Origin: Candidatus Methanomethylophilaceae archaeon
GTDB taxonomy: Archaea > Thermoplasmatota > Thermoplasmata > Methanomassiliicoccales > Methanomethylophilaceae
NCBI GenBank assembly: GCA_050950505.1
Contig: JBMNHS010000001.1
Span: forward strand, 93,687 to 157,686
Direction of reading: 5' to 3'
Length of the DNA: 64,000 bases
The notes below the pieces were generated by a model. It ran no database searches, was not told the origin of the DNA, and worked only from the letters and a program-made list of their open reading frames with translations. This document shows, in pieces, positions 32,177 to 41,989 of the stretch. Numbering within the stretch: position 1 is the stretch's first letter; each line of letters starts with the position of its first letter. Both the position numbers and the translations under genes were made by a program.

Positions 32177-32196
32177 AGGCATCTAAATACGCAAGG

Positions 32197-32367
32197 TGGG
32201 AGCAGAGGGATTTGAACCCCCATCAGCGGGTTTCCACCACGGGGGGAGCGACCCCCCATGAAATTATTGAGTCATCGCTCCAGTTATTCATCATAACTCA
32301 GCCAAACTCAATTCAATCACACTCGATAACTGGAGCCCGCCAGTCTGCCAGGTTAGCCTATACTCCC
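32197..32367 (-). tRNA. tRNA-Trp (CCA) with 98-nt intron at canonical 37/38
   Basis: Exons: GGGAGUA-UA-GGCU-AACCUGGCA-GACU-G-GCGGG-CUCCAG | A-CCCGC-UGAU-GGGGG-UUCAAAU-CCCUC-UGCUCCC-A. The acceptor, anticodon (GCGGG/CCCGC) and T stems all pair. The D-stem is weak (one C.A mismatch, two G.U pairs). No CCA is encoded. Confidence 0.8.
32232..32329 (-). ncRNA. tRNA-Trp intron carrying box C/D sRNA-like elements (guide for C34)
   Basis: Elements read on the minus strand:
- CUGA at 32301-32298, a 3-nt loop, then a perfect AUGAUGA at 32294-32288. This is a D'/C' K-loop-like arrangement.
- An 11-nt guide AUAACUGGAGC (32287-32277), perfectly complementary to G31-G37 plus the first 4 intron nt.
- One nt later, AUGA (32275-32272).
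Counting 5 nt upstream of that box pairs with C34. Confidence 0.6.
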
Positions 32368-32387: not shown

Positions 32388-32495
32388 TCACTGTTTGCGC
32401 ATTTTAGCTGCTCTCTTTCTCCTTCTCATCTTCTTTTTGCGCCATTTCCAGCGTTGATTGCCGGCTTTTTTCCAGGCGCGTGAACTTCTTTTCAT
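32388..32495 (-). CDS. rpl41e: 50S ribosomal protein L41e
   Basis: 35-aa ORF, below the track cutoff: MKRSSRAWKKAGNQRWKWRKKKMRRRKRAAKMRKQ. This is the characteristic RWKW...KK.RR.KR pattern. GGAGG-like gaggag lies 8 nt upstream of the ATG. Confidence 0.75.
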   Translation of the reverse strand: MKRSSRAWKKAGNQRWKWRKKKMRRRKRAAKMRKQ

Positions 32496-32535: not shown

Positions 32536-32639
32536 TGGCGGGCCCGTCGGGAATTTCGGTTTCTTTATTGTTGAAACTTTCGAACCCGAGGCGTCTGGCT
32601 TAGAAGGCCAGCGCTATATCCTGGCTAAGCCACAGGCCC
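32536..32639 (-). tRNA. tRNA-Arg (UCU) with 26-nt non-canonical intron in the T-loop (59/60), CCA encoded
   Basis: Acceptor GGGCCUG/CGGGCCC, D-arm GCUU-AGCCAGGAUA-UAGC, anticodon arm CUGGC-CUUCUAA-GCCAG. The T-arm UCGGG-UUCGAA[26 nt]U-CCCGA is interrupted. Discriminator G followed by CCA. Confidence 0.8.
32553..32578 (-). other. tRNA-Arg T-loop intron in an hBHBh' motif
   Basis: Minus-strand fold: the T-stem acts as the outer helix. A 4-bp helix UUCG/CGAA is flanked by 3-nt bulges (AAA on the 5' strand, AUU on the 3' strand). The inner helix is GUUUC/GAAAC with a 9-nt loop. Cutting between the 2nd and 3rd bulge nucleotides removes exactly 26 nt and restores the T-loop UUCGAAU. Confidence 0.7.
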
Positions 32640-32664: not shown

Positions 32665-32671
32665 ATTTAAA
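32665..32671 (-). promoter_or_regulatory. TATA-box-like element for tRNA-Arg (and probably the rpl41e/tRNA-Trp unit)
   Basis: Minus-strand TTTAAAT is centred about 29 nt upstream of the tRNA-Arg 5' end. No comparable element lies in front of rpl41e or tRNA-Trp. Confidence 0.4.
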
Positions 32672-32674
32672 GGT

Positions 32675-33289
32675 TTACATAAAGGATATTATGTTCTCAG
32701 TGTTGACGGAATACTTGAGGTACAGATCGTAAAGTGAACCGTATCCCATGGCTATGCTGACGCCTTCGGCAATGCACAACAGACCCAGAATGAAAAGCAA
32801 CGGCCACCAATTCAGAATTTTGCCGAAAACCTTTATCAGTTCTTCTCCGAAATTGGTGATCATATACACTATCGCACCGACGATTACCGCCACGATTATC
32901 CTGGGCCATCCGTATGCCAGAAATGAAACATCGATTTTCCACAGAACCGAGCCGTCCAGCGAACCCAATAATATGTAACTCAGAATCATTACGAACAATG
33001 CCAGCAGAGCGGCGAAGTGTACGTCCTGAAACGGTCTGATGATTAGCGCAAACCCTCCGACCAGAACAATGACTGCCGTGGCCAGGTTCAATGCGCTCCA
33101 TCCGGCAGCGGCGGCGTATATCATAGCCACACCGACCGCAAAACCCAGGAACATCGCGAATTTGTATTTCGTGGAGTTTTTGTCTTTCAGATAAAAGAAA
33201 ACAACGAATACGGCAATCACTCCGCCTACTATCAGTATCAATTCCGTGAGGTGATTGGTAAGCCATTCCAGAATTGCGTCGGCGTCCAT
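32675..33289 (-). CDS. Hypothetical polytopic membrane protein
   Basis: 204-aa ORF with about 6 hydrophobic helices. No recognisable family. Confidence 0.55.
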   Translation of the reverse strand: MDADAILEWLTNHLTELILIVGGVIAVFVVFFYLKDKNSTKYKFAMFLGFAVGVAMIYAAAAGWSALNLATAVIVLVGGFALIIRPFQDVHFAALLALFVMILSYILLGSLDGSVLWKIDVSFLAYGWPRIIVAVIVGAIVYMITNFGEELIKVFGKILNWWPLLFILGLLCIAEGVSIAMGYGSLYDLYLKYSVNTENIISFM

Positions 33290-41880: not shown

Positions 41881-41989
41881 TGGTGCCGAGACTGGGGTTC
41901 GAACCCAGGACCTTCGGATTTCCCTGGAAGAGGTCTGTAAGACCAGAACCCTATGAGTCCGACGCTCCACCAGGCTGAGCCATCTCGGC
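41881..41989 (-). tRNA. tRNA-Met (CAU), elongator type, with 32-nt canonical intron; CCA encoded (tRNA-Ile2 not excluded)
   Basis: Acceptor GCCGAGA/UCUCGGC, D-arm GCUC/GAGC, anticodon arm UCGGA-CUCAUA[intron]A-UCCGA, T-arm CUGGG-UUCGAAC-CCCAG. It lacks the A1:U72 pair typical of archaeal initiator tRNA. Confidence 0.85.
41920..41951 (-). other. Canonical 37/38 intron of tRNA-Met(CAU)
   Basis: 32 nt. The inner hairpin is GGUCU-uac-AGACC. The bulge-helix-bulge is relaxed, with one mismatch in the central helix. Confidence 0.75.

What the first reader, a model, noticed from the sequence alone, without database searches (positions are those of the whole stretch)
32536..32639. tRNA-Arg(UCU) interrupted by a 26-nt intron in the T-loop (position 59/60) with a textbook hBHBh' motif
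All four arms of a normal tRNA-Arg(UCU) are present, but the T-loop reads UUCGAA-[26 nt]-U.

The insert folds so that the T-stem continues into a 4-bp helix (UUCG/CGAA). That helix is flanked by two 3-nt bulges on opposite strands, followed by an inner 5-bp helix. This is exactly the substrate geometry of the archaeal splicing endonuclease. Cutting between the 2nd and 3rd bulge nucleotides regenerates a canonical 7-nt UUCGAAU loop.

Non-canonical intron positions such as 59/60 are established mainly for Crenarchaeota and a few deep lineages. They are uncommon in euryarchaeal-type genomes, and standard tRNA finders can mis-annotate or miss such a gene.
Basis: partly seen in the sequence, partly recalled or inferred. 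Interest (0 to 1): 0.6.

Follow-up and report, generated by a model that had tools for sequence, protein, structure and literature searches.

The report
tRNA-Arg gene with T-loop intron
This is a real and probably essential arginine tRNA gene of a gut-type methanogen (order Methanomassiliicoccales) whose T-loop is interrupted by a 26-base archaeal splicing intron; the intron is conserved across the order and beyond, but it is a known kind of intron that current tRNA software already counts in this group.

Summary
On the minus strand, 32639..32536 encodes tRNA-Arg(UCU). A 26-nt insert sits between T-loop positions 59 and 60, and the lowest-energy fold gives exactly the described hBHBh' motif.

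- **Splicing in silico.** Removing the 26 nt gives a 78-nt tRNA-Arg(tct). Intronless orthologues carry exactly that joined T-arm sequence.
- **Need for the gene.** It is the only UCU copy found in the 1.33-Mb genome, and AGA is the commonest arginine codon (38%).
- **Enzymes.** The genome encodes a tandem-repeat (alpha'2-type) EndA and RtcB.
- **Conservation.** The intron is present in all seven families sampled of the order, with compensatory changes in every pair of the inner helix. It also occurs in other Thermoplasmata, often together with a second, canonical 37/38 intron, and in tRNA-Arg(CCG).
- **Novelty.** Position 59/60 is a listed intron site, and tRNAscan-SE 2.0 already counts 6 noncanonical introns in 3 Methanomassiliicoccales genomes.

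The scan noted the same feature before on other genomes (e1-4018507, e1-4938878).

Verdict: a real, functional gene and a new member of a known kind. Its wide conservation in an alpha'2-EndA lineage is mildly interesting.

The parts
32536..32639 (-). Whole tRNA-Arg(UCU) gene: precursor of 104 nt including the encoded CCA (32538-32536) and discriminator G (32539)
   Evidence: Sequence. ARAGORN on the spliced form gives tRNA-Arg(tct).
32579..32639 (-). Exon 1, tRNA positions 1-59 (61 nt); anticodon UCU at 32604-32602
   Evidence: Rfam tRNA partial match. BLAST matches to relatives break exactly at query position 61.
32553..32578 (-). 26-nt intron AGUUUCAACAAUAAAGAAACCGAAAU at position 59/60
   Evidence: Absent from intronless orthologues, which read GGGTTCGAATCCCGA.
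32536..32552 (-). Exon 2: U60, T-stem 3' strand CCCGA, acceptor 3' strand CGGGCCC, G73, CCA
32547..32589 (-). hBHBh' motif. Outer helix = T stem (32589-32585 with 32551-32547). Central 4-bp helix UUCG/CGAA (32584-32581 with 32558-32555). Bulge AAA (32580-32578), bulge AUU (32554-32552). Inner helix GUUUC/GAAAC (32577-32573 with 32563-32559). Loop 32572-32564.
   Evidence: Lowest-energy fold. Covariation in 33 distinct orthologues.
32665..32678 (-). Archaeal promoter-like element: TATA box TTTAAAT (32671-32665, -32 to -26) preceded by a BRE-like GTAAACC (32678-32672)
   Evidence: Conserved at the same distance upstream of nearly all orthologues across the order. Transcription itself is inferred.

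Best explanation
This is the genome's single functional tRNA-Arg(UCU) gene. It is probably transcribed from its own BRE/TATA promoter as a precursor in which T-loop bases U54-G57 pair with the 3' part of a 26-nt intron, forming a strict 3-4-3 bulge-helix-bulge motif that stacks on the T stem.

The alpha'2-type (tandem-repeat, presumably homodimeric) splicing endonuclease EndA would cut after the second base of each bulge. RtcB would join the exons, giving a 75-nt tRNA plus CCA with the standard UUCGAAU T loop.

Shown here: the gene anatomy, the motif, its conservation and covariation, the uniqueness of the gene, and the presence of both enzymes. Inferred: transcription, the cuts, the ligation, and that T-loop modification and D/T-loop docking must follow splicing.
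For: **Structure**
- The lowest-energy folds give the hBHBh' motif.
- In silico splicing gives tRNA-Arg(tct).
- Intronless orthologues have exactly the predicted joined T arm, GGGTTCGAATCCCGA, and score 63-64 bits with Rfam against 29.6 bits here.

**Uniqueness and need**
- ARAGORN, Rfam and my motif scan find no other UCU gene. With Arg(CCG) at C1:818001 the standard 46-tRNA set is complete.
- AGA makes up 38% of Arg codons, 19 per 1000 codons.

**Conservation**
- The 59/60 intron (19-28 nt) is present in all 7 families sampled of the order.
- In an alignment of 33 distinct sequences, 99.1% of cells are paired, and all 5 inner-helix pairs show double (compensatory) changes.
- 0 of 500 shuffles reach the observed values, and sliding the partners drops pairing to 70% or less.
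- RNAalifold predicts the same structure independently.

**Enzymes**
- One 347-aa EndA with N-C-N-C domain order. Y287/H295/K326 are present only in the second repeat.
- RtcB scores 591 bits.

**Promoter**
- A promoter motif is conserved upstream.
Against:
- Reviews state that alpha4 and alpha'2 enzymes act on strict motifs at the canonical position (PMC4090602). The position here is non-canonical, although the motif is strict.
- The related genomes are kin, so the shuffle control overstates independence.
Confidence: 0.93

Rival explanations
1. The locus is a decaying pseudogene: a tRNA gene disrupted by a chance insertion and no longer used.
For: ARAGORN misses it, and Rfam scores it at the threshold (29.6 bits against 29).
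Against: It is the only UCU gene, while AGA is the top Arg codon. The exons are 98-100% conserved within the family. The insert keeps a 3-4-3 motif with compensatory changes in 42 genes. The promoter is conserved.
Confidence: 0.02
2. The 26 nt are not removed, and the tRNA works with an extended T arm.
For: Nothing direct; it stands only because splicing was not observed.
Against: In the fold, U54-G57 are locked in a helix, so the T loop could not form its conserved contacts with the D loop (established tRNA architecture). Orthologues in five genera lack the insert precisely and have the normal 7-nt loop. The motif matches the known endonuclease substrate.
Confidence: 0.01
3. The insert is an assembly or sequencing artefact.
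For: None.
Against: Homologous inserts occur at the same position in 36 of the 55 related genomes parsed and in at least 119 named species-level assemblies.
Confidence: 0.005
4. The intron is spliced as described, but is also kept by selection for a second role. Candidates are ordering T-loop modification after splicing, or masking the T-arm region that integrating elements use as an attachment site.
For: It is retained across the order and in other Thermoplasmata families, and in two Arg isoacceptors.
Against: It was lost cleanly in at least five genera with no visible consequence for the gene. Only the pairing is conserved in the intron, not the loop sequence. No test of either role was possible.
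Confidence: 0.15

Closest known systems
[quoted passage not shown] 2008; reviewed in PMC4090602; the ARMAN-2 tRNA-Cys and tRNA-Pro examples in PMC3239211)
   Same: Same insertion site, same excision logic, and the same strict hBHBh' form as ARMAN-2 pre-tRNA-Pro(GGG).
   Different: Those examples come mostly from lineages with (alpha-beta)2 or epsilon2 endonucleases and many disrupted tRNA genes. In this genome it is the only non-canonical intron found, alongside three canonical ones, and the enzyme is the alpha'2 type.
Noncanonical introns counted in Methanomassiliicoccales by tRNAscan-SE 2.0 (PMC8450103, Supplementary Table S7)
   Same: Same order. The table lists 6 noncanonical and 13 canonical introns in 3 genomes, with one gene holding two introns. 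That matches the single-intron and two-intron tRNA-Arg(UCU) genes seen here.
   Different: The table gives counts only, with no gene, position, conservation or discussion. I could not confirm that those six include tRNA-Arg(UCU) 59/60.
Canonical 37/38 BHB introns of Euryarchaeota, cut by alpha'2 EndA (Archaeoglobus fulgidus, Thermoplasma acidophilum, Haloferax volcanii)
   Same: Same 3-4-3 motif, same enzyme class and same ligase.
   Different: The outer helix is the T stem rather than the anticodon stem, and the central helix uses the invariant T-loop bases U54-G57.

Membership tests
Archaeal bulge-helix-bulge (hBHBh') tRNA intron | Two 3-nt bulges on opposite strands separated by a 4-bp helix | tested here: met
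   Lowest-energy folds. All 42 intron-bearing genes parsed from relatives have 4/4 central pairs and 3-nt bulges.
Archaeal bulge-helix-bulge (hBHBh') tRNA intron | Flanking outer (h) and inner (h') helices | tested here: met
   h is the 5-bp T stem and h' is 5 bp. All five h' pairs show compensatory changes.
Archaeal bulge-helix-bulge (hBHBh') tRNA intron | Removal at the bulges restores a standard cloverleaf tRNA | tested here: met
   ARAGORN calls tRNA-Arg(tct) after removal. Intronless orthologues have the same joined T arm and are 95-99% identical to the spliced product overall.
Archaeal bulge-helix-bulge (hBHBh') tRNA intron | Splicing endonuclease and RNA ligase encoded in the genome | tested here: met
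   EndA (Pfam PF02778 x2 and PF01974 x2). RtcB (PF01139, 591 bits).
Archaeal bulge-helix-bulge (hBHBh') tRNA intron | Intron is excised in vivo (spliced tRNA, free or circular intron) | not testable with these tools
alpha'2 (homodimeric, tandem-repeat) EndA | One polypeptide with two N-terminal plus C-terminal domain repeats | tested here: met
   A single 347-aa open frame with N-C-N-C matches and no second EndA gene.
alpha'2 (homodimeric, tandem-repeat) EndA | Catalytic Tyr/His/Lys only in the C-terminal repeat | tested here: met
   Y287, H295 and K326 align with the motifs that hold the catalytic triad in solved EndAs. The first repeat has R116 at the His position. This is sequence-level evidence only.
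alpha'2 (homodimeric, tandem-repeat) EndA | Forms a homodimer with two active sites | not testable with these tools
   No structure prediction or assay was run.

The most novel reading that the evidence does not exclude
The 59/60 intron of tRNA-Arg(UCU), and of tRNA-Arg(CCG) in relatives, is an ancient intron conserved across much of the class Thermoplasmata. It has been maintained in lineages that have only the narrow-specificity alpha'2 endonuclease. This would imply positive selection for a role beyond being tolerated, such as a maturation checkpoint for the T loop or protection of the T-arm attachment region. It would also contradict the textbook link between non-canonical or multiple introns and broad-specificity endonucleases.
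Probability: 0.15. Interest if true: 0.55.

Novelty: new member of a known kind. Interest (0 to 1): 0.3.

Why it matters
**For annotation.** Simple tRNA finders leave this genome without a decoder for its commonest arginine codon. The gene has to be recovered by intron-aware tools.

**For biology.**
- An alpha'2-EndA lineage carries a stably inherited non-canonical intron, and in several families two introns in one tRNA gene.
- This qualifies the review statement that such Euryarchaeota have only single introns at the canonical position.
- Because the motif is strict, it still fits the known enzyme specificity, so no new mechanism is needed.
- The repeated clean losses and the many compensatory changes make this a neat natural data set for studying intron gain and loss.

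Tried and rejected
- **Literature.** Searches for a description of tRNA introns in Methanomassiliicoccales or Methanomethylophilus found nothing specific. A 2026 Asgard intron preprint does not mention the group.
- **ARAGORN -i on two-intron relatives.** It mis-assigned anticodons. I replaced it with my own stem-based parser.
- **First acceptor-stem parser.** It picked false 3' ends when G-U pairs were allowed and was rewritten.
- **Small ORF downstream.** Pfam and NCBIfam gave no match for the 35-aa ORF, so its eL41 identity rests on resemblance only.
- **A second hidden intron-bearing tRNA (Arg-CCG).** Rejected: that gene exists without an intron at C1:818001-818072, just below the Rfam cut-off.

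Full report
**1. Observation**

Read on the minus strand, window 32639..32536 is GGGCCUGUGGCUUAGCCAGGAUAUAGCGCUGGCCUUCUAAGCCAGACGCCUCGGGUUCGAA-[AGUUUCAACAAUAAAGAAACCGAAAU]-UCCCGACGGGCCCGCCA.

All four arms of a tRNA-Arg(UCU) are present:
- The acceptor stem has seven pairs.
- The D stem has three pairs plus U.U.
- The anticodon stem-loop is CUGGC-CUUCUAA-GCCAG.
- The T stem is UCGGG/CCCGA.
- CCA is encoded.

The T stem encloses 33 nt instead of 7. ARAGORN does not find the gene. Rfam's tRNA model matches only positions 1-45 plus a false 3' strand, at 29.6 bits against a cut-off of 29.

- T stem
- 3-nt bulge AUU on the 3' strand
- 4-bp helix UUCG/CGAA
- 3-nt bulge AAA on the 5' strand
- 5-bp helix GUUUC/GAAAC
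- 9-nt loop

The precursor folds at -41.8 kcal/mol, z = -3.4, and no shuffle in 200 folds as well.

**2. In silico splicing and chance**

Cutting after the second base of each bulge removes 26 nt (32578-32553). This leaves a 78-nt sequence that ARAGORN calls tRNA-Arg(tct), with T loop UUCGAAU.

To ask whether this is more than chance, I listed every strict 3-4-3 motif in the whole genome, requiring outer and inner helices of at least 3 bp and an intron of 11-130 nt. There were 23,095. I spliced each in silico and ran ARAGORN. Five spliced constructs gave a tRNA across the junction:
- One was this gene.
- Two overlap tRNAs that are already found without any splicing.
- Two are implausible: an 89-nt 'Gly', and an alternative 5' end beside the known tRNA-Gln.

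**3. The organism and its tRNA set**

The window lies in a 1.33-Mb, two-contig genome with 49% G+C and 99.6% completeness.

The genome belongs to the order Methanomassiliicoccales. A relative in the same order (G042) has a single contig of 1,931,651 bp. That is the published size of 'Ca. Methanomassiliicoccus intestinalis' (PMC4153887). Named public contigs that carry the same interrupted gene are labelled Methanomethylophilus, Methanoplasma, Methanomassiliicoccaceae, Methanomassiliicoccales or Thermoplasmata.

ARAGORN with intron search finds 44 tRNAs. Compared with the standard archaeal set of 46, the missing ones are Arg(UCU) and Arg(CCG). Arg(CCG) is present without an intron at C1:818001-818072, at 28.5 bits, just under the Rfam cut-off. 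The interrupted gene is therefore the only decoder of AGA.

In 831 long open frames, AGA is the commonest arginine codon: 6,539 codons, 38% of Arg, 19 per 1000. A pseudogene reading is therefore not tenable.

**4. Comparative evidence**

A BLAST search with the 104 nt against 60 relatives matched 55 of them. I fetched the loci not supplied and parsed 55 genes by stem complementarity: 54 tRNA-Arg(UCU) orthologues and one tRNA-Lys(CUU). One further tRNA-Arg(UCU) locus was cut by a contig end and could not be parsed.

Distribution of the 59/60 intron (19-28 nt):
- It is present in all seven families sampled.
- In the window's own family it is present in 16 of the 19 genera sampled.
- It is absent from three genera of that family (g4, g6, g16) and from one genus in each of two other families (g21, g25).
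- The genes that lack it read GGGTTCGAATCCCGA, which is exactly the predicted splice product.
- One intronless orthologue is 99% identical to the spliced window sequence over 77 nt. Intronless orthologues score 63-64 bits with Rfam.

In five families the gene also has a second intron of 20-27 nt at the canonical 37/38 site. In one genus only that canonical intron remains.

Across the 42 intron-bearing genes (41 tRNA-Arg(UCU) and the tRNA-Lys(CUU) of G045):
- The central helix always has 4 of 4 pairs.
- Both bulges are always 3 nt.
- The bases predicted to be exonic (AA of bulge 1, U of bulge 2) never vary. The bases predicted to be intronic do vary: the third base of bulge 1 is A or U, and the first two bases of bulge 2 are AU, AG, AA, AC or UU.
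- This supports the exact cut sites.

A MAFFT alignment of the 33 distinct T-arm-plus-intron sequences of tRNA-Arg(UCU) is in register. On it:
- 99.1% of cells form standard pairs, against 90.7% in shuffles.
- 7 of 14 pairs show changes on both sides, including all five pairs of the inner helix (for example GUUUC/GAAAC, CCUUC/GAAGG, CUCUC/GAGAG, CCCUG/CAGGG).
- 0 of 500 shuffles reach any observed measure.
- Sliding the 3' partners by one column drops pairing to 70% or 56%.
- RNAalifold predicts the same consensus structure on its own.

The sequences are kin, so these numbers overstate independence. Even so, 24 distinct inner helices across the seven families are hard to explain without selection on pairing.

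**5. Beyond the order**

A class-level search and the fetched loci show the same 59/60 intron in tRNA-Arg(UCU) in at least three further Thermoplasmata families (f10, f22, f29). There it has a strict motif and lengths of 22-46 nt.

A fourth family (f16) has T loop UUCAAA and an A.G mismatch in the central helix.

Nearly all are labelled as Thermoplasmata-type or unclassified euryarchaea. Two sit in gut bacterial bins, which is probably bin contamination.

My parser assigns the 119 hits as follows:
- 88 to tRNA-Arg(UCU), of which 44 also carry a 37/38 intron.
- 29 to tRNA-Arg(CCG), of which 24 carry both introns.
- 2 unparsed.

One relative also has a 59/60 intron in tRNA-Lys(CUU).

**6. Processing enzymes**

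The genome has one EndA gene, at C1:443885-444928. It is 347 aa with the domain order N-C-N-C (Pfam PF02778 twice, PF01974 twice). Its best NCBIfam matches are 'tRNA splicing endonuclease' models.

In alignments with solved EndAs, the second repeat carries Y287, H295 and K326 in the motifs that hold the catalytic triad. The first repeat has R116 at the His position. This is the alpha'2 architecture, which the literature describes as needing a strict 3-4-3 hBHBh' motif (PMC3239211; PMC5829648). The T-loop intron meets that requirement.

RtcB is present at 591 bits.

**7. Promoter**

A GTAAACC-TTTAAAT element lies 39 to 26 nt upstream of the mature 5' end (window 32678-32665). It recurs at the same distance in nearly all orthologues of the order. 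This fits an archaeal BRE/TATA promoter. Transcription is inferred, not shown.

**8. Mechanism**

Shown:
- the anatomy of the gene
- the motif
- the covariation
- the uniqueness of the gene
- the codon demand
- the presence of both enzymes

Inferred from the established biochemistry of archaeal EndA and RtcB:
- The dimeric enzyme recognises the two bulges, which are related by pseudo-twofold symmetry.
- It cuts after the second bulge base on each strand, leaving a 2',3'-cyclic phosphate and a 5'-OH.
- RtcB then joins A59 to U60.

In the precursor, U54-G57 are paired with the intron. The T loop's own fold, its contacts with the D loop, and T-loop modifications therefore most likely follow splicing. 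This last point is also inference.

**9. Comparison with what is known**

Position 59/60 is a listed non-canonical site (PMC4090602). ARMAN-2 has 59/60 introns, one of them with a strict motif (PMC3239211).

Reviews state that Euryarchaeota with alpha4 or alpha2 enzymes have only one intron per gene, at the canonical position. This lineage is an exception in both respects.

However, Supplementary Table S7 of tRNAscan-SE 2.0 already counts 13 canonical and 6 noncanonical introns, and one two-intron gene, in 3 Methanomassiliicoccales genomes. For all 144 euryarchaeal genomes it counts 25 noncanonical introns. The phenomenon is therefore catalogued, although I found no paper that describes or discusses it.

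The scan itself has flagged the same feature in two other genomes (e1-4018507, e1-4938878). My data from relatives agree with both notes.

**10. Verdict**

It is a new member of a known kind of intron.

The modest added value lies in four points:
- The intron is conserved across the order and into other Thermoplasmata, in two Arg isoacceptors.
- It is often paired with a canonical intron.
- It sits in a lineage whose only endonuclease is the alpha'2 type.
- It has been lost cleanly several times.

Noticed in passing
window 32195-32367 (-): tRNA-Trp(CCA) with a 98-nt intron at the anticodon loop that contains C/D-box-like motifs (UGAUGA, CUGA). It is found only by ARAGORN with intron search and is missed by Rfam at its gathering score.
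   Followed up: no
window 32388-32495 (-): A 35-aa, very basic ORF (MKRSSRAWKKAGNQRWKWRKKKMRRRKRAAKMRKQ) lies between tRNA-Arg and tRNA-Trp. It has no Pfam or NCBIfam match. It resembles eL41 from memory. The same ORF follows tRNA-Arg(UCU) throughout the order.
   Followed up: partly
window 41884-41989 (-); G000:C1:661038-661148 (-): The canonical introns of tRNA-Met(CAU) and tRNA-Tyr(GUA) did not pass my strict 3-4-3 hBHBh' script. Met has an A.A mismatch in the central helix and only a 2-bp inner helix. The T-loop intron is the most regular BHB of the four introns in this genome.
   Followed up: partly
G000:C1:818001-818072 (+): tRNA-Arg(CCG) scores 28.5 bits, just below the Rfam cut-off. 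It has a U.U mismatch in the anticodon stem and is missed by ARAGORN.
   Followed up: partly
L082-L200 (genome-contig hits): 29 of 119 hits are tRNA-Arg(CCG) genes that also carry a 59/60 intron, and 24 of those have a 37/38 intron as well. Some genomes have both Arg isoacceptors interrupted in this way.
   Followed up: partly
L056 (G045:C9:36131-36477): A tRNA-Lys(CUU) in a related family also has a strict hBHBh' intron of 22 nt at 59/60.
   Followed up: no
L091, L141: Two assemblies labelled as gut bacteria (Faecalibacterium sp. CAG:74, Eggerthellaceae bacterium) hold contigs with this archaeal interrupted tRNA-Arg. This is probably contamination of the bins by Methanomethylophilaceae DNA.
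   Followed up: no
L066-L071, L075, L076, L078 (family f16, same class): The tRNA-Arg(UCU) T loop reads UUCAAA and holds a G+C-rich intron of 28-35 nt. Its central helix would have an A.G mismatch, and RNAfold leaves a 7x7 internal loop instead of a clean BHB.
   Followed up: partly
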